Assembly: GCA_036781285.1 (NCBI GenBank)
Contig: DAIQBH010000006.1
Location: forward strand, 1-62,566
DNA length: 62,566 bases
Direction of reading: 5' to 3'
Source: Thermodesulfobacteriota bacterium
GTDB lineage: Bacteria; Desulfobacterota; Binatia; UTPRO1
Shown here piece after piece: positions 25,918 to 57,795 of this stretch. The notes beneath the pieces are model-generated. The model did no database searches and was not told the origin of the DNA. It saw only the letters and a program-made list of their open reading frames with translations. Position numbers and translations under genes: made by a program. Position 1 is the first letter of the stretch, and each line of letters starts with the position of its first letter.

Positions 25918-27347
25918 TCTCGAGAAACGGCCTGCTCGCCGTCGCCGTCGCGCTCACGGCGGCGGTGTGGGCACCGACCGCTACTGCCAAGACCTTCGTC
26001 GTCGACGACCCGACCGACCCCGAGGTCGGGGACTGCAACGTCGCCGGCTCCTGCACCCTGCGGCAGGCGATTCTCGAAGCCGTCGCGTTTCCGGGACGCG
26101 ACGTGATCACCTTCGATCCGGCGGTTTTCCCGCCGGGTGCGCCCGGTACGATCCGCGTCGTATCGCCGCTCCCGATCATCGCGGACCCCGCGGGCACCGC
26201 GATCGACGGTACCGGTGCGGGTGTGCGCATCTCGTCGGATATCCCCGTCGATGACGACGCCATCGCGCCGAACGGGCTGGTCTTCGCGAGCGTGCCGGGT
26301 GTGCCGCTCCGCGACGCGGCGGTGACGAACGTGACCGTGGCGGGGTTCGAAAGCTCGGGCGTCGTGATCTGCGGCGGCGCGTATCCCGAGTGCAACGAGG
26401 ACGTCGTGGCTCCGGTCGTTCGACGGGTCACGGCCCGCTTCAACTCGGGAATCGGGATTCTCGTCCTGGGCCAGAACGTCACCAAGGCGCGCATCGACGA
26501 GTCCGTCGCCGCCGACAACGACACCGGAGTGCTCCTCAACGCGCTCGGCACGATCGCCGGCACTCGCATCACGCGCTCGGCCATGAAGGAGAACGAGTTC
26601 GCGGGCATCTGGATCGGTCCGCTCACCGGAACCATCGCCGACCTCGCGATCACGGACACGTCGGCGTCCCATGGCGCCGCGGCGATCATCGTCTCGGCCG
26701 TCGAGGACGCGGCGAAGGTCAGCCTCGCGAACGTCGCCGTCAGCGAGTCGGAGGGCATCGGAATTCTCCTGAACGCGATCACGATGTCGGCGCTCAGCGT
26801 CACGAACGTCGTCGCGTCACGCAACGCGAACCACGGCCTGTACGTCGGCGCCGACGCGTTGAGCGGCCTCGTGCTGAAGGACGTCGTCACCAACGGCAAT
26901 CAGCACGGAGTCTGGGTCCAGAGCGGCGGGGTCGTCGGCGCGAAGATCTCGCAGGTGACCGCCGCCGGCAACGACGCGAACGGCGTCCTGCTCTCGAACC
27001 TGAAGGGCGGGAAGCTCAGCCGCGTCGCGGCCGTCGGCAACGGCGCGCACGGCCTCGTGCTGACGGGCTCCGGCAACGTGCTGAAGCAGGTGCGGGCCGC
27101 GGAGAACATCGGCGACGGGATCCATCTCGGGAGCCCTGGAGGTGCGAATACCGTTACGGACGTCTCCGGCACGGCGAACCAGGGGGCCGGAATCTACGTC
27201 GCGGCCGACAGCGTCGGGAACACGATCAAGAAGAACGTGGCGCTCGGGAGTGATGCGATCGACCTGTTCGATGCGAATGTTTCGTGTGGGGCGAATGTTT
27301 GGAAGGGGAACGTATTCGAGCGGCGCAACGATTCGTGTATCCGGTAG
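25905..27347 (+). CDS. Secreted CSLREA-domain / beta-helix protein (tandem paralog)
   Basis: Signal peptide; SCTLRQAILEA; PIIADPAGTAIDG is shared with the upstream gene; 13-nt overlap. Confidence 0.87.
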   Translation: MHSLISRNGLLAVAVALTAAVWAPTATAKTFVVDDPTDPEVGDCNVAGSCTLRQAILEAVAFPGRDVITFDPAVFPPGAPGTIRVVSPLPIIADPAGTAIDGTGAGVRISSDIPVDDDAIAPNGLVFASVPGVPLRDAAVTNVTVAGFESSGVVICGGAYPECNEDVVAPVVRRVTARFNSGIGILVLGQNVTKARIDESVAADNDTGVLLNALGTIAGTRITRSAMKENEFAGIWIGPLTGTIADLAITDTSASHGAAAIIVSAVEDAAKVSLANVAVSESEGIGILLNAITMSALSVTNVVASRNANHGLYVGADALSGLVLKDVVTNGNQHGVWVQSGGVVGAKISQVTAAGNDANGVLLSNLKGGKLSRVAAVGNGAHGLVLTGSGNVLKQVRAAENIGDGIHLGSPGGANTVTDVSGTANQGAGIYVAADSVGNTIKKNVALGSDAIDLFDANVSCGANVWKGNVFERRNDSCIR

Positions 27348-27612
27348 GGGCGGGTCACTTCGAGACCACCAGGAGTGCTGGCGCGCGGAGTATGGGGACG
27401 GCTCCCGTCGCCTGCGGCGGACTCGCGTATGGTCGGCGCGGCGCGTGCACCCGGGGTCATGATTCGTCGCCCGGTGACGGGCGTATGAGGCTCGTATGGC
27501 GATCGGTGTCTTGCGGTCGGACTTTCGTTTTTACGCTCCTCGCCGAGACCGGCTCCGTCCGCCGTCCCCATACTCCGCGCGCCTGTGACGTCGCGTTCGA
27601 AGTGACCTGCCC
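27348..27612. mobile_element. ~265-bp element bounded by nested inverted repeats (MITE/REPIN-like)
   Basis: GGGCGGGTCACTTCGA (27348-27363) vs TCGAAGTGACCTGCCC (27597-27612), 15/16. Perfect 23-bp inverted repeat at 27380-27402 / 27561-27583. Confidence 0.55.
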
Positions 27613-50454: not shown

Positions 50455-52488
50455 TCAGGAAGCGGAGGACGGGCTGCGGAACTGCGCCGCGCCCTCGATG
50501 CGCTCCGTCAGCGCCGCGCGCCCCGTGCTCGGGACGTCGCTCGGGAACTTCGCGTCGCTCCGCCGCCATTGCTCGAGCCACTCGGGGCCGAGCAGCACAC
50601 GGCCGCGTGCCGCGGCGTGCGCGACGGCGGCCGGTGTCATCGCGAGCGTCGTCTCCGGGCGCCGGCCGGTCGGGGCGCCGCGCGCGATCACGAAGCCCGC
50701 GCCGAGCATCGCAGTGCGGACGACGGTCGCCGCGGAGTAGGTGAAGAGCTCGGTGTCGTGCGCGGCGCATTCCGCGAACACGGCCTCGAAGCATTCGAGC
50801 GTCCACATCGGTGTATCGGTCTTCTTCGAGAACGGATCCCAGAAGATGCAGTCCGGCGTCGGCGCTTGCGAGAGATGCTGGCGGAAGTCGCCCTCGAAGA
50901 GCGTCCAGACGATCGGCAGCACGTCCGAGCGCCATTCGGCGAAGCGCAGCACCTGGCTCGGTGCGGGATGGTGCAGGTGCGGGAACTTCACCGCATGGCG
51001 GAGCGCGAGCCGCAGCGAGGCGACGTCGTGCTCGAAGCTCACGAGGTGGAGCGGCCGGGCCAGATTCAGCGCGTCGCCTTCGGCCGCTCGCAGCGCGGCC
51101 ATCGCATTGTGCGCGGCGCCCATGCCGACGTCCCACACGACGTACGGGGTCGCGCTCGGCTCGGCCAGCCGGTGCAGCAACCTCGACTGCTCGACGTAGA
51201 GCGCGTTCGCCTCGATCGTCGGATCGATCCCGCCGTGCATCATCTCGCCCGAGGCGCGGTGCATGATGCTGGCGTGGCCTTCCGGGGAATCGTGGATCCG
51301 GAAGCGTTCGAGCGCGCTTTCGTTCCGGCGTTTGCGCCGGCGCGGGGTCGGGATCGATGGATTGTCGTCGTCGCCGCGGGCCAGGATCAGCCGTTGGTCG
51401 TCGCGGAACGCCGCGAAGGTGTCGGCGAGGATGTGGGCGCGCATGCGGCGCATGAGGCCGCAGTAGAAGTGGACGTTGTGCTTCGCGAGCAGCTGCCAGC
51501 CGAGCGCCTCGCTCGTCTTGATGAGGTGGTGGACGTACGCCCGCGAGTAGTCGCTGCACGTCGGGCAGCCGCACTCGGCGTCGACGGGATCCTCGGAAAG
51601 CTTGTAGACGCCGCGATAGAGATTCAGCCGTCCGGTCGACGTGAACGCGACGCCCTGCCGCGCCAGCACGGACGGAATGGTGCAGTCGAACATGTCGACA
51701 CCGCGCTCGACGGCTTCGAGGAGGTCGAGCGGCGTGCCGACGCCCATGAGGTAGCGGGGTAGGTCGCGCGGTAGAAGGGCTGCGGCGAATGCGGTGAAGC
51801 GCTCGCGGTCCGCTTTGCTCTCGCCGACGGCGAGCCCGCCGATCGCGAATCCGTCGAAGGGCAGGCGACGCATGTGCTCCGCGCTCTCCGCGCGGAGATC
51901 CTCGAAGCACGCGCCCTGCACGATCCCGAAGAGCGCCGATGCCGCGTCGCCCCGTGCCGCGAGGCTGCGCTCGGCCCAGCGATGCGTGCGGTGCATCGCC
52001 GCAGCGGCGACCTCGTGGTCGGACGTCGACGGCACGCACACGTCCATCGCCATCATGATGTCGCTGCCGATCGCGAGCTGGGTCGCGATGCTGCGCTCCG
52101 GGCTCAGCAGCACGCGCGCGCCGTCGACGTAGCTCCGGAAGACCGCGCCCTCTTCGGTGATCGTGCGGTCGTTGGGCAGCGAGAACACCTGATACCCGCC
52201 GGAATCCGTCAGCACCGACCGCCGCCAGTTCATGAACCGATGGATGCCCCCGAAACGCGCGAACACCTCGGGCCCAGGCCGCAGCAGCAAGTGGTACGCG
52301 TTCGCGAGCAACACGTGCGCGCCCCCCGCCTCGAGATCCTCGACGGTGAGCCCCTTGACGGTCGCCTGCGTCCCAACGGGCATGAAGAGCGGCGTCTCGA
52401 CCTCGCCATGCAATGTCCGGAAGGTACAGGCACGCGCCGACGACCTCGACGCGGTCCCGTCGACACGAAAATGCAGCCGCGAAGTCAT
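50455..52488 (-). CDS. tgt: tRNA-guanine transglycosylase fused to an MnmD/MnmC-like methyltransferase domain
   Basis: TPLFMPVGT, TDSGGYQ, MDVC, GIVQG, GGLAVGE, YLMGVG, DMFDC, CGCPTC..H. C-terminal DVGMGAAHN, WDPFS...MWT, TYSAA. Confidence 0.93.
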   Translation of the reverse strand: MTSRLHFRVDGTASRSSARACTFRTLHGEVETPLFMPVGTQATVKGLTVEDLEAGGAHVLLANAYHLLLRPGPEVFARFGGIHRFMNWRRSVLTDSGGYQVFSLPNDRTITEEGAVFRSYVDGARVLLSPERSIATQLAIGSDIMMAMDVCVPSTSDHEVAAAAMHRTHRWAERSLAARGDAASALFGIVQGACFEDLRAESAEHMRRLPFDGFAIGGLAVGESKADRERFTAFAAALLPRDLPRYLMGVGTPLDLLEAVERGVDMFDCTIPSVLARQGVAFTSTGRLNLYRGVYKLSEDPVDAECGCPTCSDYSRAYVHHLIKTSEALGWQLLAKHNVHFYCGLMRRMRAHILADTFAAFRDDQRLILARGDDDNPSIPTPRRRKRRNESALERFRIHDSPEGHASIMHRASGEMMHGGIDPTIEANALYVEQSRLLHRLAEPSATPYVVWDVGMGAAHNAMAALRAAEGDALNLARPLHLVSFEHDVASLRLALRHAVKFPHLHHPAPSQVLRFAEWRSDVLPIVWTLFEGDFRQHLSQAPTPDCIFWDPFSKKTDTPMWTLECFEAVFAECAAHDTELFTYSAATVVRTAMLGAGFVIARGAPTGRRPETTLAMTPAAVAHAAARGRVLLGPEWLEQWRRSDAKFPSDVPSTGRAALTERIEGAAQFRSPSSAS

Positions 52489-52543: not shown

Positions 52544-52630
52544 GAGCGAGGAGCGCGGATTGACTCCGCGCTCCGAGGGCCATCGGAGCATTTCGGGCGC
52601 GAAGCGCTCGAAAGCGCACGGGGCCGAAAT
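52544..52630 (+). repeat. Structured dispersed repeat, copy A (REP/BIME-like or ncRNA)
   Basis: Aligns with the reverse complement of 56367-56454. Three hairpins; 20-bp exact tail AAAGCGCACGGGGCCGAAAT. Confidence 0.85.
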
Positions 52631-52814
52631 GAAAAGGTCCGGGGCACCGACGCGTTCTCCACAAACGCGCCGGTGCTCCTCTCCGCGCCGAACCCATTCC
52701 CGCGCTGCGCTCCACTTCGCGCGCGGGGCGGCGGGATCTCGAAGTGACGGGATCGTGTCTAAACAAGAGTTGTTTGCTTGTCAAGCAACTTCCGATTGGG
52801 GTAGGTTCGCCGCA

Positions 52815-53609
52815 ATGCAACGGCGGAGCAATGCCCCCAAGGGCATCAAGGATCTCTTCTACGAGACCCGTGTGCTCAGCGGTCGCGAATACACCGTCAC
52901 GCGCTTCGCCAAGGAGGTTCTGGGCGGCGCGGTCGACCCGGTGATGCTCGGCTACATCGAGAAGGGAAAGCGCTTTCCGAACGAGGCTTTGGTCCGTCGG
53001 TTGGCGAAGATCCGCGAGGAGCCCGTCGCGCCGCTGCTCGCGGTGCTCTACCGCGATCGCATGCTGTATGCCTTCGGGCGTGAGCTCCGCCGCGCGCTCC
53101 ACGACCCCGCGCAGGTCGAAGGCATCGAGGACGCCGATCTCGCCGTGCAGGTGAGCCGCGCGATCGCGGCGCTCCCCGACGACGGCGAGTGGATCACCAC
53201 CGCGAAGTGGCGCGGCGCGATCGGCGTCGCGGTGCGCGCCGATGCGAAAGACGACGACGTCAAACGCGTCACGGATCTCTTGAAGGAACGCGGGCTCGTC
53301 GAGCAGTCGAAGGGCAAAGTGCGCCGCGTCTCGCGCCATTTCGTCGCCACGACGCTCGAAGAACGGCGCGCGCTGGCGATGGAGTTCACCGCGATCTACA
53401 CCAAGGCGTTGCTCGACAAAGTGAGCTTGCCGGAACGCGCGGCGGCGACGCATCTCCGCAACCACTACTTGCACATCGAGCGTGAACGGCTTCCCGAGTT
53501 CTACCAAAAGCTCGAGAAGGCGGCTCGGGCGCTGGCCGAGGAGTTCGCGGCCGACGCCGGAGCCAGTACGGAGTTCCTGAACGTCCTCGTCGTGGGAACG
53601 CCGGTTTGA
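52815..53609 (+). CDS. Putative transcriptional regulator: XRE-like HTH plus uncharacterised C-terminal domain
   Basis: MLGYIEKGKRFPNEALVRRLA resembles the XRE recognition helix. Start inferred at MQRRSN. Confidence 0.6.
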   Translation: MQRRSNAPKGIKDLFYETRVLSGREYTVTRFAKEVLGGAVDPVMLGYIEKGKRFPNEALVRRLAKIREEPVAPLLAVLYRDRMLYAFGRELRRALHDPAQVEGIEDADLAVQVSRAIAALPDDGEWITTAKWRGAIGVAVRADAKDDDVKRVTDLLKERGLVEQSKGKVRRVSRHFVATTLEERRALAMEFTAIYTKALLDKVSLPERAAATHLRNHYLHIERERLPEFYQKLEKAARALAEEFAADAGASTEFLNVLVVGTPV

Positions 53610-53619
53610 CGGAGTGAGG

Positions 53620-54240
53620 ATGCCGATCGACATGCGACGACTTGGAACGGGACTGCTTGCCGCGAGCGTGCTCGCCGCGATGCTGGTCGGCCTCGCCGGC
53701 TGCGGCGGCAGTGGCTCGAGCGGCTTCGATGCCGTTGCCAGCGAAGCGAGCATCCTCCAGCACGTCATCGACTCCGGCGATTGCGCGAAGTTCGGCGCCC
53801 AGACGTTCTGCGCGTCGGGCGTCGAGGCGCCCGTACGGCCCTTCGAGGGCGCGCTCGTGAAGATCCAGCAGCCGGTCGACACGCCGCTCGTTTGCACGGG
53901 CAGCCAGTTCGCGGAGCAGTGCACGGCGCCGCTGGCGTTCACCACCGAGGGTTTCAACGAGCCGAGCAGTCTCCTCGCCGCCGTCAGCGAAACCGAAGCG
54001 GGTCCGTGGACCCTCGCCGCCGTCGAGGTCACCGAGGGCGTCGACGGCGGTCCGCGCACCGTCTCGATCGCGGTGCCCGGGGACACCAGCGATCGCGGAC
54101 CGGCGCCGCTGATCGCCGCGGTCCTCGTCTACCAGGGCACGCCGCCCGAGAACTTGCCGATCGTGAGCGGGCAGCTCTCCGACTTCCAGGTCGATCTCGT
54201 CTACGTGAGCCAGCGGCTCGAGATCGTCGTCCCGCGCTGA
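53620..54240 (+). CDS. Hypothetical lipoprotein
   Basis: Lipobox LAGC after a hydrophobic stretch, then a GGSGSSG linker. Confidence 0.75.
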   Translation: MPIDMRRLGTGLLAASVLAAMLVGLAGCGGSGSSGFDAVASEASILQHVIDSGDCAKFGAQTFCASGVEAPVRPFEGALVKIQQPVDTPLVCTGSQFAEQCTAPLAFTTEGFNEPSSLLAAVSETEAGPWTLAAVEVTEGVDGGPRTVSIAVPGDTSDRGPAPLIAAVLVYQGTPPENLPIVSGQLSDFQVDLVYVSQRLEIVVPR

Positions 54241-54265
54241 TCGCGGCTCGCCATGCAACGCGCGG

Positions 54266-54700
54266 TTACTTCGCCCAGCCCTCGCGGAGCGGCGCGAAGA
54301 AGCGGAGCGTGATCTTGCGAGTCTGGAAACGCCAGCCGTCCGCGGTGCGGACGTAGCGGTCGTCGTACCAGCCGGCGCCGATCATGCTCTCGCCGTTCAC
54401 CTCGGCGCGCAGATCGATGTAGCACGCGCCGGTCGCCGTATCGCCATCGAGATCGACGACGTGCTGTTGGATGAAGGGCAGGAACGTCGAGCCCGCCGTC
54501 AGCATCTCGCGGAAGCCCGCGAGCAGCGCCGCGCGCCCGACGATCGGCGGGCGCGTCCCCGGATCCATCGAGCCGTCCTCGGCGAACAGATCGGCGAGGG
54601 CTTCGAGATCGTTCTGCCAGACGTAGTGCGCGTAGCGGCGGGCGAGATCGCGGATCGCTTCGAGGTCGGCGAGATCGCGGAGCGTACGGTCGGCGCTCAT
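54266..54700 (-). CDS. NTF2/SnoaL-like family protein
   Basis: DLEAIRDLARRYA..V, LFAEDG, GRAAL, GWYDDRYVRTADGWRF. Confidence 0.87.
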   Translation of the reverse strand: MSADRTLRDLADLEAIRDLARRYAHYVWQNDLEALADLFAEDGSMDPGTRPPIVGRAALLAGFREMLTAGSTFLPFIQQHVVDLDGDTATGACYIDLRAEVNGESMIGAGWYDDRYVRTADGWRFQTRKITLRFFAPLREGWAK

Positions 54701-55698
54701 TCGGCGAGATGATCGAGGTATTCCGAGAGGCCGTAGCCGACGCGATCGCCCCAACGCCACTCGGTCATGCCCTCGGCGATGCGCGTCACCTTGCCGTCGC
54801 GGCGGTTGCGGAGCGGGATCATCGCGAGGACCTTGCCGCTGATCTCGTGGACCGCGCCGTCCTTGGTCGTCGCGCGGACGCGAATGCGATCGTGGAGCTG
54901 CTGCTCGCCGACGAAGTCGGTGTCGACCTCGGTCTTCACGATCGCCGCGTTCGGCTGACCTTTCCGGTAGACGTAACCCGCCTGGATCTGCCGGCCGTCG
55001 CGCTGCACGACGAGGCTCGGGCATGCGCCGAGGTCGTCGCCGAAGCTCATCGTGAGCCAGCGGTAGTATTTCGGCGCTTGCCAGTAGCGCGGGCCCCAGG
55101 AGTGATCGCGGAGCCCCGGAGCGTTCAGCTCGTATCGTTGTCCGTCCACCACCAGTGTGCCGACGGCTTTGCCGTGCTGCTCGAGATGGCCCTTCGCGAA
55201 CTCCTGACCGGATTTCTCGACGCGCGCGCTCACCCAGCGGTCGCCGTCGCGCCGGCGCGGCTCGCCGCCGTAGCCTGGTGAGAGTCCGAGGTACGCGACG
55301 TCGAGCTCGACGGACACGAACGGGTTGCTCGCGAAGGCGGCCTTGGGATCGGCCATTTCGAGCGGGTCCGCCAGCATGCACGCATGGCCGCGATAGGTGA
55401 CGCGGTGCTCGACGAAGGGCGTCTTCACCTCGAAGCGGAGGCCGCCGGCGTCGTGCGCGTCGTTCGAGGCGATCTCGGGCCGCTTGTACATGAACGCGAC
55501 GCGTCCGTCGGGCAGGTAGAAGCACGTCGTCATCTCGCCCTTGCCCTCGTTCGGCCGGTTGCCGAGCCGCACGAACCCCCCGACGCGCAGCTTCGGGTCG
55601 AAGAAGTTGTAGTACGCGCTCTCGTTGAAGTTCTCCTCGCCCGTGTTCTCGTGCATCAGATCGTCGGTCGGGAGGAGGACGAGCTCGGCGTCGGCCAT
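54697..55698 (-). CDS. Conserved hypothetical protein (possible tocopherol-cyclase/lipocalin-like fold)
   Basis: NESAYYNFFD, RLGNRPNEG, RDHSWGPRYW. GGGAG RBS. The fold assignment is a guess. Confidence 0.6.
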   Translation of the reverse strand: MADAELVLLPTDDLMHENTGEENFNESAYYNFFDPKLRVGGFVRLGNRPNEGKGEMTTCFYLPDGRVAFMYKRPEIASNDAHDAGGLRFEVKTPFVEHRVTYRGHACMLADPLEMADPKAAFASNPFVSVELDVAYLGLSPGYGGEPRRRDGDRWVSARVEKSGQEFAKGHLEQHGKAVGTLVVDGQRYELNAPGLRDHSWGPRYWQAPKYYRWLTMSFGDDLGACPSLVVQRDGRQIQAGYVYRKGQPNAAIVKTEVDTDFVGEQQLHDRIRVRATTKDGAVHEISGKVLAMIPLRNRRDGKVTRIAEGMTEWRWGDRVGYGLSEYLDHLAE

Positions 55699-55796
55699 GG
55701 CGCACTCCCTACGCGATCCGCTCGCGGCGACGCAACCGTCCAGCTCACGGCGCCGGCTCGCTTTGGCTCGCCCGGCGCCCATGGTAAGGCCGGCGG

Positions 55797-56366
55797 ATGA
55801 TCTCCACCGGTGATTTCAAGCGGAACCTCCGCATCCAGATCGACGGCGAGCCCTACGTGATCCTCGACGTCCACGTGCAGTCGCCGTCGGCGCGCGGCGC
55901 GAGCTCGCTCTCGAAGATCAAGGTGCGGAACATGAAGACGGGCCAGGTCTTCGACAAGACGTTTCGTGGCGGCGACAAGGTCGAGGAGCCGAACGTCGAG
56001 CTCCGGCCCATTCAGTTCCTCTACCGGGACGACGACGGGTTCCACTTCATGGACACCCAGTCGTACGACCAGTTCATGCTCACCGCCGACGACCTCGGCG
56101 ATCTCGGCGGCTATCTGAAGGACGGCATGAGCAGCATCCGCTCCGTCCTCTTCAACGGCGACGTGATCTCGGTCGAGCTCCCGAACACGGTCGTGCTCCA
56201 GGTCGTCGACACGGCGCCCGCGGTGAAGGGTGCCACCGCGCAGGCGCAGACGAAACCGGCGACGCTCGAGACCGGGCTGGTGATCCAGGTCCCGTCCTAC
56301 CTCGAGAGCGGCGAGCTCGTGCAGGTCGACACGCGCGAAGCGCGCTTCATCGCTCGCGCCAAATAG
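55797..56366 (+). CDS. Elongation factor P paralog, EfpL/YeiP-type loop
   Basis: EF-P fold motifs (FMD..SYDQ, KPATLETGLVIQVP) with QSPSARG in place of PGKG. Confidence 0.88.
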   Translation: MISTGDFKRNLRIQIDGEPYVILDVHVQSPSARGASSLSKIKVRNMKTGQVFDKTFRGGDKVEEPNVELRPIQFLYRDDDGFHFMDTQSYDQFMLTADDLGDLGGYLKDGMSSIRSVLFNGDVISVELPNTVVLQVVDTAPAVKGATAQAQTKPATLETGLVIQVPSYLESGELVQVDTREARFIARAK

Positions 56367-56454
56367 ATTTCGGCCCCGTGCGCTTTTCGGGGCATGCGCC
56401 CCGAAAATGCTCCGAGGGCCCTCGGCGCCCGAAGTGAATTCCGGCGCCTCGCTT
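56367..56454 (-). repeat. Structured dispersed repeat, copy B
   Basis: Starts at the first base after the efp-like stop. Its reverse complement aligns to 52544-52630. Confidence 0.85.
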
Positions 56455-56457
56455 CCG

Positions 56458-57795
56458 CTAAACGACGAGCGGCGCGCCGAGGCCGCTCTGGATCGGCGTG
56501 TCGTCGAGCTCGTCCAGCTCCTCGATCTCGGGTGCGTCGTCGTCGAACGGCGTCTCGTCGATCGTCACGTCGGGCGTGAAGCTCGGCTCGTCGACGGCGT
56601 CGACGAGATCGATCTCGCCGCTGAATTGCGTCTCGGTCCCGACCTCGACGCCGGCCTCGTCCGGCAGCGGCGGCCGGACGACCGCGATCAGCACCGCGGC
56701 CGCGACGAGCCCGGCGGGCGCCGCGCCCCAACCCCGCAAGGCCCGGCGGAGGTCGGTCCACGGCCGCGGGCGCGCCTCCCACCGATCGACGGCGCGTGCC
56801 ACGAGCCACGATCCCGCGAGCACCGGCAGGACGACGAGCGCCTGCGCGCTCCCGATCCACCAGAGCGGCGTCACCGCGAGGAGCGCCAGCATCTGCAAGA
56901 ACACGTGCGCGCCGTACACCGCGAGGCTGCGCCGTCCGAGCGTCGCGATCGCCGCGGCGCCCGCCGAGCGGCGCATGTGACGCCACCCGACCGCGCTCGT
57001 CGTCAGCACGACGAGCGTCGCCGCGAGGTAGCGCAGCAGCTCCCCGGTCGTGAGGGGGACCTTCGCGAAGCTCACGAACGTCGGCTCCGGGACGATGTCG
57101 AAGCGCGGGCCGTACGCGAGCGACGTCGTCACGATGAACGCGATCCATGCCCCGGCCATCGCGACGCGCCACGCGCGCCGGCCGCGATCGAGCCGCGGCA
57201 CGACCATGCTGAAGAGGAGCCCGGCGACGAAGAACGCCTGCCAGAGGAGGAACGGAAACTCGACGCTCGCGCGCGGCGAGAACGCGTGAGGATCGTGGCG
57301 GCCGTAGGTGAAGACCGCCGCGCTCACCAAGGCGACGAGCGGCCAGAGTCCCCGGCGCAGGAGTGCGAACGCCGCCGGCGTGACTAGCAGCATTGCAACG
57401 TACAGCGGAAAGACGTCGATGTACGACGGCGCCTCGCGAAGAAACGCGATGTCGCGCACGAGCGCCAGCGGATCGGCCGCGGGAGAGCGCGTGCCTCGCA
57501 GCACGTCGAGCGTCACGATGATGCCCGTAAGCGCGTAGTGCACGCCCAGCAGGTAGACCGCCCGCGCCCAGAGACGGGCGGTCGACGCCCGGAGGTGACG
57601 GTCGTCGCGCGGGCGGAGATACGCGAGGCCGACGCCGAGCCCCGCCACGAACACGAAGCCGCCGGCCGCGAAACGCGTGTAGTCCACGATCCACGGCGTG
57701 AGGACGCCGAACTGCACGCCCTCGTGCACGAGGTGCACGAGGATCATGTCGATCAGGCAGAGCCCGCGCCAGAGATCGAGCCGCCGATCGCGCAC
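56458..57795 (-). CDS. OpgC-family membrane acyltransferase (glucan succinylation-like)
   Basis: RDRRLDLWRGLCL...H, FVFVAG, FPLYV, WQAFF.AG, LGRRSL.VY. Multiple transmembrane segments. Confidence 0.8.
   Translation of the reverse strand: MRDRRLDLWRGLCLIDMILVHLVHEGVQFGVLTPWIVDYTRFAAGGFVFVAGLGVGLAYLRPRDDRHLRASTARLWARAVYLLGVHYALTGIIVTLDVLRGTRSPAADPLALVRDIAFLREAPSYIDVFPLYVAMLLVTPAAFALLRRGLWPLVALVSAAVFTYGRHDPHAFSPRASVEFPFLLWQAFFVAGLLFSMVVPRLDRGRRAWRVAMAGAWIAFIVTTSLAYGPRFDIVPEPTFVSFAKVPLTTGELLRYLAATLVVLTTSAVGWRHMRRSAGAAAIATLGRRSLAVYGAHVFLQMLALLAVTPLWWIGSAQALVVLPVLAGSWLVARAVDRWEARPRPWTDLRRALRGWGAAPAGLVAAAVLIAVVRPPLPDEAGVEVGTETQFSGEIDLVDAVDEPSFTPDVTIDETPFDDDAPEIEELDELDDTPIQSGLGAPLVV

What the first reader, a model, noticed from the sequence alone, without database searches (positions are those of the whole stretch)
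52544..56454. Dispersed ~88-nt three-hairpin repeat with compensatory base changes
Seen: copy A (52544-52630, plus) and copy B (56454-56367, minus) differ mainly in the stems while keeping pairing. Hairpin 1 is GGAGCGCGGA-TTGAC-TCCGCGCTCC versus GGCGCCGGAA-TTCAC-TTCGGGCGCC, with three compensatory pairs. Hairpin 2 is CCGAGGGCC(A/C)TCGG. Hairpin 3 is TTTCGGGCGC-GAA-GCGCTCGAAA versus TTTTCGGGGC-GCAT-GCCCCGAAAA. The unpaired 3' tail GCGCACGGGGCCGAAAT is identical. Both copies are intergenic and next to translation-related genes (tgt, efp-like). Inference: selection on structure, pointing to a new REP/BIME family, a ssDNA-recognised mobile element or a structured ncRNA.
Basis: partly seen in the sequence, partly recalled or inferred. 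Interest (0 to 1): 0.62.

Follow-up and report, generated by a model that had tools for sequence, protein, structure and literature searches.

The report
Structured 85-base dispersed repeat family
The two look-alike stretches are members of an undescribed family of about 85-base, two-hairpin repeats, with about 46 copies in this uncultured Binatia genome, that sit mostly just after gene ends and behave like a small mobile element whose mobilising enzyme is unknown.

Summary
Copies A (52544-52630, +) and B (56367-56454, -) belong to a family with 46 copies in this 6.2-Mb MAG. Most genomes of the same Binatia family carry at least 10-70 copies, and a few other families of the class carry 1-5.

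The fold has two domains.

Covariation is strong: 97-99% of cells are paired against 76-79% in shuffles, and 16 of 24 pairs have double changes. Rfam has no match.

Copies form head-to-tail arrays, vary in number at a single site, and are present or absent at orthologous sites in congeners. Their 3' end lies 0-9 nt from a stop codon (mostly TAG) or a tRNA 3' end on the opposite strand.

I found no terminal inverted repeats (TIR) and no target-site duplication (TSD). A Y1/RAYT transposase and an IS110 transposase were both tested as partners and rejected.

Best reading: a new REP/BIME-like, structure-dependent, non-autonomous element. Whether it acts as RNA or DNA is unresolved.

The parts
52544..52630 (+). 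Copy A, a full element of 87 nt. It lies in the divergent region between the start of tgt (-) and a hypothetical gene (+).
   Evidence: Covariance model R1 scores 101.6 bits, E = 9e-20. MFE is -51 kcal/mol, z = -5.2. The orthologous site in G007 holds 2 full and 1 partial tandem copies (locus L178).
52547..52577 (+). Copy A, domain 1 (P1/HP1). C:G closes a tandem G.A/A.G, then a 10-bp stem and the TTGAC loop.
   Evidence: Eleven pairs, 10 of them with double compensatory changes. Variants CGAGG..CCTCG and CGCGG..CCGCG turn the G.A pairs into Watson-Crick pairs.
52578..52625 (+). Copy A, domain 2. P2 (GGCC:GGCC), a bulged A, TCG:CGG with an invariant T.G, an internal loop, GC:GC, then the P3 stem-loop, which varies in sequence and length.
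   Evidence: The middle pair of P2 covaries G:C, C:G, T:A. GAG[C/G]AT covaries with A[G/C]CGC.
52626..52630 (+). Copy A, the conserved single-stranded 3' end GAAAT.
   Evidence: Consensus of 34 and of 66 copies.
56367..56454 (-). Copy B, a full element of 88 nt. It fills the gap between the convergent efp and OpgC-like genes.
   Evidence: Model R1 scores 91.7 bits. MFE is -52.1 kcal/mol, z = -5.3. It is present, identical in all but one base, in six same-species contigs from other samples.
56421..56451 (-). Copy B, domain 1 (P1/HP1), with the TTCAC loop and one G.G mismatch.
56372..56420 (-). Copy B, domain 2 (P2 enclosing P3).
55797..56366 (+). efp. Its TAG stop (56364-56366) directly abuts the element's 3' end; in gene sense this reads TAG|ATTTCGG.
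   Evidence: Pfam EF-P domains. The stop is at the same codon in relatives without the element.
56458..57795 (-). OpgC-like acyltransferase. Its TAG stop lies 3 nt from the element's 5' end, on the same strand as the element.
   Evidence: PF10129 and PF01757. A contig encoding the same EF-P protein but with divergent DNA (L197) has GTG TGA and unrelated GC hairpins here.
50455..52488 (-). tgt fused to a methyltransferase domain. Its start codon is 55 nt from copy A.
   Evidence: PF01702 and PF05430.

Best explanation
The element is a member of a lineage-specific family of small, non-coding, structure-dependent dispersed repeats. It works like REP/BIME elements or miniature ssDNA-type transposons but belongs to none of the defined families.

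The unit is about 83-94 nt. It reads (T)GAGCGAGG, then hairpin 1 with a TTSAC loop, then CGAGGNCC-A-TCGGAG[C/G]AT, then a variable hairpin, then A[G/C]CGCACGGGGN'CGAAAT.

Shown:
Stem sequences drift freely. Loops, bulges, junctions and both single-stranded ends stay fixed.
- Copies are gained, lost or replaced at orthologous sites between species.
- Copies amplify head-to-tail.
- They are placed with their GAAAT end 0-9 nt from the stop codon (preferentially TAG) or the tRNA 3' end of a gene on the other strand.

Inferred:
- An unidentified trans-acting protein recognises the folded single strand, as DNA or possibly RNA, through the invariant unpaired bases. It copies the unit into AT-rich, stop-codon-proximal sites, or converts resident copies.
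- Copies that persist are those that leave the flanking genes intact.
- In transcripts they would add stable 3' or intercistronic hairpins, a REP-like side effect.
For: Copy number and range:
- 44 copies by nhmmer and 46 by covariance model in the genome.
- 15 of 17 genomes of the family have hits. Counts are lower bounds because only 105 or 21 candidates were scored per genome.
- 31 of 201 genomes of the class have hits.

Structure:
- 97.0% of cells pair on a MAFFT alignment and 98.9% on a model alignment, against 76-79% in shuffles.
- Covariation score is 0.48 and 0.47 against 0.12-0.13 (0 of 500 shuffles reach it). Slid controls give at most 0.11.
- Wobble pairs favour this strand. G.T occurs 11 times at variable pairs and in all 60 scored sequences at one invariant pair. 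A.C occurs 3 times.

Mobility:
- The C153 site is filled only in G000 and empty in 6 congeners.
- C147, C38, C142:9048 and efp are filled in some species and empty in others.
- Orthologous sites carry different subfamilies in G000 and G002 at efp and C193, and in G000 and G005 at the tRNA site.
- Tandem arrays have a period of about 83 nt. Copy number varies at one site: 1 in G020 and at least 5 in G076; 1 in G000 and 3 in G007.
- Modules occur alone.

Placement:
- 17 of 46 copies lie within 12 nt of a convergent stop in a strict gene set. The null mean is 0.16, maximum 2 in 300 trials.
- The adjacent stop is TAG in 11 of 17, against 24% genome-wide.
- A looser gene call gives at least 20 of 44.
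- Copies next to tRNA 3' ends occur in four genomes.

No Rfam match.
Against: - No mobilising enzyme was found.
- The Y1/RAYT-like genes neither flank the copies nor co-occur with them. G010 has 71 copies and G018 has 63, and both have no such gene.
- No IS110-family locus in the long-read relatives has element-like ends.
- There are no terminal inverted repeats.
- No target-site duplication appeared in four filled/empty comparisons. Flanks are only about 85% identical, so junctions are known only to within a few bases.
- No insertion polymorphism was seen within the species, so there is no evidence of current activity.
- Some copies lie in sense inside operons: kor, cus/czc and pabA-like. The strict conservation of unpaired bases would equally suit a functional RNA.
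- Gene conversion between resident copies, rather than transposition, could explain the subfamily swaps.
Confidence: 0.6

Rival explanations
1. It is a family of functional structured RNAs, either cis-acting mRNA elements or small RNAs. The fold would act in transcripts as a 3'-end or intercistronic stabiliser, a processing site or a protein-binding site. The many copies would then reflect selection for that function rather than selfish spread.
For: - Covariation is strong, with invariant loops and bulges, a tandem G.A and an invariant U.G, as in protein-binding RNAs.
- Sense-oriented copies sit inside operons. One lies between a cusB-like and a czcA-like gene in another family of the class. 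Others lie upstream of korA-like and pabA-like genes.
- About 14 copies lie within 40 nt downstream of a same-strand stop.
- The kor copies of G000 and G008 differ by two compensated pairs and one loop base only.
Against: - The tight positional rule (0-9 nt) applies to the gene on the opposite strand, where the transcript would carry the complement. There the T.G and G.A pairs become mismatches.
- No promoter-like or U-tailed terminator-like signal lies at either window copy.
- The kor copy is absent in G001, G002 and G006 and degenerate in G007, so it is dispensable.
- Two congeners have no copy and a third has one.
- Neighbouring genes share no function.
Confidence: 0.2
2. It is a family of folded single-strand recombination sites used or targeted by a site-specific recombinase. 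Candidates are attC-like sites or preferred landing pads or by-products of IS110/IS1111-type elements.
For: - Its architecture recalls attC: structure conserved rather than sequence, bulged bases, a variable terminal structure, one strand favoured, and a position at ORF 3' ends.
- In G003 one IS110-family copy is flanked on both sides by an element copy.
- That IS also produces about 88-nt, two-hairpin LE-RE mini-derivatives that form tandem arrays, a precedent in these genomes.
- One junction (C142:12252) is truncated at a CGTC microhomology with the host flank.
Against: - The attC core sites RYYYAAC and GTTRRRY are absent (sequence).
- Flanking genes are conserved core genes (efp, tRNA, kor), not cassettes.
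- The other 4-5 IS110 copies in G003 and those in G007 have no element nearby.
- None of 18 IS110-family loci in six genomes of the family has element-like ends.
- No direct repeat of a core sequence lies at the two junctions.
Confidence: 0.1
3. It is chance similarity or an assembly artefact.
For: None beyond the fact that the genome is a 381-contig MAG. Several copies also sit at contig ends.
Against: - There are 46 copies with E-values down to 1e-21.
- The same family occurs in independent assemblies, including long-read ones, and in six other samples of the same species.
Confidence: 0.01

Closest known systems
REP / BIME / REPIN elements with RAYT transposases (Enterobacteria, Pseudomonas, Stenotrophomonas)
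   Same: - Extragenic, high-copy hairpin-forming repeats found mainly downstream of genes, between unidirectional or convergent ORFs.
- Their ends may touch or supply TAG stop codons (PMC3733652).
- They cluster into mosaic or tandem groups and differ in number between close relatives.
- The hairpin is kept by compensated changes.
   Different: - The unit is about 85 nt with two different hairpin domains in one orientation, not a 20-40 nt palindrome or an inverted REPIN pair.
- There is no GTAG or CGTC tag.
- Arrays are head-to-tail.
- The RAYT-like Y1 genes present in these genomes neither flank the copies nor co-occur with them.
IS200/IS605-family ssDNA transposons and their miniature derivatives (PATEs)
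   Same: - No terminal inverted repeats and no target duplication.
- Subterminal hairpins are recognised as structure on one strand.
- Insertion is oriented and sits next to a short AT-rich motif.
   Different: - No cognate TnpA was found.
- The distance to the stop codon varies from 0 to 9 nt, so there is no fixed tetra- or pentanucleotide target.
- No orientation bias relative to local GC skew: 15 against 21.
Integron attC sites
   Same: - Structure rather than sequence is conserved.
- There are bulged (extrahelical) bases, an internal unpaired spacer and a variable terminal structure.
- One strand folds, and the site lies at the 3' end of ORFs.
   Different: - The R''/R' core sites are absent.
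- Copies are dispersed next to core genes and tRNA genes rather than arranged in cassette arrays.
- They also occur as head-to-tail arrays without ORFs.
MITEs such as Correia and ERIC, and MIRU-type intercistronic VNTRs
   Same: - Similar size, non-coding and multi-copy.
- Found in intergenic or intercistronic positions.
- Tandem copy number varies at a locus, as with MIRUs.
   Different: - No TIR and no TA or other TSD.
- No embedded ORF or translational coupling. The 83-nt period is not a multiple of 3.

Membership tests
REP/REPIN-RAYT | A 20-40 nt imperfect palindrome carrying a conserved GTAG or CGTC tag at one end | tested here: not met
   The consensus of 34 and of 66 copies has no such tag at either end. 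The unit is about 85 nt with two distinct hairpins. The definition is taken from PMC3733652.
REP/REPIN-RAYT | A cognate RAYT (Y1 HUH) gene that is flanked by the repeats and co-occurs with them | tested here: not met
   PF01797 and the genome's own RAYT-like protein were searched in 41 genomes. Neither is found in G010, G011 or G018 (71, 15 and 63 copies). G013 (41 copies) has no PF01797 match and one copy of the RAYT-like protein. The four G000 genes have no element in their flanks.
REP/REPIN-RAYT | Extragenic, high copy number, mostly downstream of genes | tested here: met
MITE | Terminal inverted repeats | tested here: not met
   The 5' end GAGCGAGG and the reverse complement of the 3' end, ATTTCGNCCCC, share no similarity.
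MITE | Target-site duplication flanking the insert | tested here: not met
   No direct repeat lies at the junctions of C153, C147, C38 or C142:9048 when compared with empty sites. Flanks are only about 85% identical, so a 1-2 nt duplication cannot be excluded.
IS200/IS605-derived miniature element | Insertion immediately 3' of a fixed tetra- or pentanucleotide, and a TnpA whose IS ends match the element | tested here: not met
   The flank next to ATTTCG varies (TAG, TCG, TTG, CGC and others) and lies 0-9 nt from the stop. No IS with these ends was found. The strong Y1 genes are in G001 and G008, which have 0 and 1 copies.
Integron attC | R'' (RYYYAAC) and R' (GTTRRRY) core sites, in cassette arrays associated with IntI | tested here: not met
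   The core motifs are absent from the consensus. Neighbours are conserved core genes. IntI itself was not searched.
IS110/IS1111 mini-derivative (LE-RE fusion) | A full-length IS110-family element whose left and right ends match the two halves of the repeat | tested here: not met
   18 PF01548 loci were found in five of the seven genomes searched (G000 and six relatives of the family). Only the one already known to be flanked by copies has any element-like sequence, and there it lies outside the IS ends.
Any Rfam family | A match at the family's gathering score | tested here: not met
   No hit in the whole window at gathering thresholds. The best sub-threshold hit has E = 0.96.

The most novel reading that the evidence does not exclude
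The repeats are the substrate of a still unidentified structure-specific enzyme that acts on a folded single strand and homes to the 3' side of stop codons (preferentially TAG) and to tRNA gene ends. It would replace or add copies at the same sites repeatedly. That would be a new transposition or recombination system outside the Y1 HUH, DDE, DEDD and integron classes tested here. Alternatively, the repeats are a protein-bound RNA family with a cellular role.
Probability: 0.15. Interest if true: 0.7.

Novelty: new variant of a known kind. Interest (0 to 1): 0.42.

Why it matters
- Binatia (Binatota) are uncultured, and no repeat family has been described for them. Two literature searches turned up none.
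- The family is an unusually clean natural experiment in structural covariation. Dozens of paralogues per genome keep a two-domain fold while the stems turn over.
- It marks gene 3' ends with base-level precision and breaks short-read assemblies.
- It can serve as a lineage and strain marker, because copy number varies at fixed sites.
- If its mobilising factor is found, it could reveal how a small element is aimed at stop-codon-proximal sites.
- Practically, annotators should mask it so that it is not called as sRNAs, terminators or spurious ORFs. ORFs running through it were listed.

Tried and rejected
- **RAYT/Y1 link.** Pfam PF01797 and the genome's own 230-aa HUH/Y1 protein were searched in 41 genomes. 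There is no co-occurrence and no flanking copies.
- **IS110 link.** One IS110-family copy in G003 lies between two element copies. Its other copies and all other PF01548 loci lack the element.
- **Ancestral kor leader.** I tested whether the single copy in G008, upstream of a korA-like gene, is an ancestral functional leader. It is absent in G001, G002 and G006 and degenerate in G007.
- **Stop codon supplied by the element.** I tested whether the element supplies the TAG stop or converts the last codon. Wider comparison shows the stop is native at efp, C7, C142:9048, C147 and C193, so TAG enrichment is a target or retention preference. C38 (TGA in three relatives, TAG in G000) remains ambiguous.
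- **Replication-strand bias.** Local GC skew gives 15 against 21, not significant, and contigs are short.
- **Strand bias in G003.** The apparent 30:9 bias on the 7-Mb contig of G003 was not interpreted, because the search scores only the top candidates.
- **Insertion polymorphism within the species.** All contigs from other samples carry copy B and the C153 copy.
- **Multi-copy IS in the MAG.** Self-megablast found none of 250 bp or more. This is expected for a short-read bin and is not informative.
- **All-against-all blastp** of ORFs timed out.
- **Promoter and terminator scan** found nothing at the copies.


Full report
**1. The observation**

They align over about 88 nt. The final 17-mer GCGCACGGGGCCGAAAT occurs exactly twice in the window.

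The energies are -51.0 and -52.1 kcal/mol, with z = -5.2 and -5.3. The complement folds less well, at -44.5 and -49.7 kcal/mol.

Pfam confirms the neighbours:
- tgt fused to a methyltransferase domain (50455-52488, -);
- EF-P (55797-56366, +);
- an OpgC-like acyltransferase (56458-57795, -).

Copy B fills the gap between the convergent efp and OpgC-like genes. Copy A lies between the divergent starts of tgt and a hypothetical gene.

**2. It is a large family**

The window is contig C6 of a 6.17-Mb MAG with 381 contigs and 69.8% G+C.
- Iterated nhmmer finds 44 copies.
- A covariance model built from 34 of them (R1) finds 46.
- Several copies are head-to-tail pairs or lie at contig ends.

Relatives found through EF-P are all MAGs labelled Candidatus Binatia, "Deltaproteobacteria" or "Polyangiaceae bacterium UTPRO1".

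Among 40 relatives, 15 of 17 genomes of the same family carry the element, with up to 71 hits. These counts are lower bounds, because only 105 candidates per genome were scored. Two congeners (G001, G006) have none and one (G008) has a single copy.

Across 201 genomes of the class, 31 have hits. Outside the family these are 1-5 copies, in four other families.

Rfam has no match at gathering thresholds. The best sub-threshold hit has E = 0.96.

**3. Anatomy and structure**

The alignments give the consensus GAGCGAGG - HP1 (8-10 bp stem, TTSAC loop) - CCGAGGNCC A TCGGAG[C/G]AT - P3 (variable stem, loop and length) - A[G/C]CGCACGGGGN'CGAAAT.

RNAalifold predicts 24 pairs, 16 of them with double compensatory changes.

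- **HP1 is longer than described.** C4 pairs with G35, and C:G changes to G:C in 5 of 5 variants. The two intervening positions form a tandem G.A/A.G, which becomes Watson-Crick in the variants CGAGG..CCTCG and CGCGG..CCGCG.
- **The "unpaired tail" is paired.** GGNCC pairs with GGN'CC. The middle pair is G:C in 18, C:G in 10 and T:A in 5 sequences of this genome.
- **GAG[C/G]AT covaries with A[G/C]CGC.**

Covariation statistics on the two alignments:

| Measure | Sequence-only MAFFT alignment | Model-fitted alignment, 66 copies from four genera |
|---|---|---|
| Cells paired | 97.0% (shuffles 76.4%) | 98.9% (shuffles 79.0%) |
| Doubly changed cells | 148 (shuffles 47) | 259 (shuffles 80) |
| Covariation score | 0.481 (shuffles 0.126; 0 of 500 reach it) | 0.468 (shuffles 0.122) |
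| Slid controls | at most 0.11 | at most 0.077 |

G.T occurs 11 times at variable pairs, plus one invariant T.G. A.C occurs 3 times. It does not say whether the fold forms in DNA or in RNA.

**4. Where the copies sit**

With a strict gene set (2514 ORFs), 17 of 46 copies have their GAAAT end within 12 nt of the stop codon of a gene on the opposite strand. Random intergenic placement gives a mean of 0.16 and a maximum of 2 in 300 trials. This null is generous, because only about half the genes are in the set. A looser gene call gives at least 20 of 44 copies at 0-9 nt.

The adjacent stop is TAG in 11 of 17 cases, against 24% TAG and 70% TGA genome-wide.

Copies also abut the 3' end of tRNA genes on the opposite strand. 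One tRNA has a copy beside it in G000, G003, G005 and G007, and a second tRNA has one in G003.

The first 8-9 nt beyond GAAAT are AT-rich with a weak consensus, C.A.[CT]TA[GA], often ..TTGAC or CTAGAC in G003.

The other end is less constrained. It may face a convergent gene's stop or the start of the next gene in an operon.

A minority of copies lie in sense inside operons:
- upstream of a korA-like gene (G000, G007, G008);
- upstream of a pabA-like gene;
- in another family of the class, between a cusB-like and a czcA-like gene, with 1 copy in G020 and at least 5 tandem copies in G076.

No sigma-70-like promoter or U-tailed terminator is predicted at the window copies.

**5. Evidence for gain, loss and replacement**

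Flanks of ten G000 copies were searched in eight congeners and aligned.

| Site | Filled in | Empty or different in | Junction detail |
|---|---|---|---|
| C153 | G000 only | six congeners | Element lies exactly between the upstream gene's stop and the next gene's ribosome-binding site |
| C147 | G000 | G002, G003 | TGA-TTTG\|ATTTCGG |
| C38 | G000 | G001, G007, G008 | - |
| C142:9048 | G000, G002, G005 | G004, G007 (stop and start overlap) | G001 and G003 keep a remnant of half of HP1 |
| efp | G000, G002 | G001, G004, G005, G008 | G007 has HP1 alone at the same place |

Three further points:
- No direct repeat flanks the inserts, and there are no terminal inverted repeats.
- One junction (C142:12252) is truncated at a CGTC microhomology with the host flank.
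- Where two species share a filled site, the resident copies often belong to different subfamilies. efp and C193 in G000 and G002 differ throughout HP1 and P3. The tRNA-site copies of G000 and G005 differ by four fully compensated pairs, while the unpaired segments are identical.

This points to recurrent insertion at preferred sites or to gene conversion among copies. Either way, pairing is maintained.

Head-to-tail arrays with a period of about 83 nt are common, for example three units at G007:C1:238017-238265. The copy A locus has 1 unit in G000 and 2 full plus 1 partial unit in G007 (L178).

Modules can occur alone. HP1 stands alone after the C2 copy and at efp in G007. P2/P3 stands alone at C40, C185, C276 and C316.

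Within the species I saw no polymorphism. Contigs from other samples carry copy B and the C153 copy, with copy B the same apart from one base in two contigs.

**6. Search for a partner enzyme**

- **Y1/HUH.** PF01797 hits do not track the element. The genome's own RAYT-like protein (HUH motif NHAHLIV, Y motif RYVLLN) belongs to a family that is greatly expanded in some relatives, with at least 65 divergent copies in G003. It is absent from G010, G011, G012 and G018, which hold 71, 15, 3 and 63 elements. Its four G000 genes have no element or obvious hairpin in their flanks.
- **IS110.** In G003 a 1571-bp IS110-family element lies between two element copies. Its other copies in G003 and G007 have no element nearby. 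All 18 PF01548 loci found in G003, G007, G010, G012 and G014 lack element-like ends; G000 and G017 had none. That IS does spawn about 88-nt LE-RE mini-derivatives that form tandem arrays. This is a local precedent for two-hairpin mini-elements, but not the source of this one.
- **The MAG itself** contains no assembled multi-copy IS, as expected for a short-read bin.
- **Orientation** relative to local GC skew is unbiased, 15 against 21.

**7. Interpretation**

The data fit a structure-dependent, non-autonomous dispersed repeat. A trans-acting factor would read the invariant unpaired bases on a folded single strand. The stems only need to pair.

Placement next to stop codons and tRNA ends, with a fixed polarity and base-level precision, argues for target choice rather than mere tolerance. 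The TAG excess is best read as a target or retention preference, because the stop is native at most compared sites.

Known REPs share the habit of touching or supplying TAG stops and of lying downstream of genes (PMC3733652). This element nevertheless fails the defining tests for REP/RAYT, MITE, IS200/IS605 derivatives, attC and IS110 derivatives (see membership tests).

A functional-RNA reading is not excluded and is not exclusive of the repeat reading. It is weakened by three results:
- the tight positional rule applies to the antisense gene;
- whole genomes of the same genus lack the element;
- the most conserved-looking copy, at kor, is dispensable.

**8. Verdict**

This is a real, previously undescribed family. 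It is a new variant of the REP/BIME/miniature-element kind, with an unusually well-supported bipartite fold and an unexplained targeting rule. The mobilising mechanism and the nucleic acid in which the fold acts remain open.

Noticed in passing
G000 contigs C9:50808-51497, C28:93-800, C145:4344-5060, C130:7983-8648 (outside the window); G003:C6, many places: A 230-aa Y1/HUH RAYT-like gene family is hugely expanded and divergent in some relatives. G003 has at least 65 mostly intact paralogues at 63-70% identity, G004 has 23, G015 has 20 and G002 has 14. It is absent from others. RAYTs are normally single-copy, so this expansion is unusual in itself.
   Followed up: partly
L216 (G003:C6, about 577.9-579.4 kb), L217 (G007:C2, about 356 kb): A 1571-bp IS110-family IS has solo LE-RE fusions of about 88 nt with two hairpins. 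These flank the full copies. In G007 they form tandem units separated by an identical 29-nt spacer. In G003 the repeated "spacer" on both sides of one IS copy is the 85-nt element.
   Followed up: partly
window 27355-27602: This non-coding stretch has a second copy at contig C150:50-295 (85.7% identity over 251 nt). It corresponds to another first-stage note on a nested inverted-repeat element, so it is a separate repeat family.
   Followed up: no
window 52631-52750: The sequence just after copy A (GTCCGGGGCACCG...GCGCCGGTGCTCC...) is conserved at the orthologous G007 locus (L178). It therefore looks like locus-specific flank with its own hairpin, not part of the repeat unit.
   Followed up: partly
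G000 C43:~26950-26972; L245 (G007): The korA-like gene directly downstream of an element copy has no obvious ATG, GTG or TTG start in G000 or G007. G008 has ATG at that position. The true start, or possible read-through from within the element, is unclear.
   Followed up: no
L197 (GCA_030841325.1 contig JAUPWZ010276330.1): A contig encoding the identical EF-P protein but with different DNA carries unrelated GC-rich hairpins (GGCGCGCC-GAC-GGCGCGCC and GGGGG...CCCCC) in place of copy B. The efp/opgC convergent gap is thus filled by different hairpin elements in different lineages.
   Followed up: no
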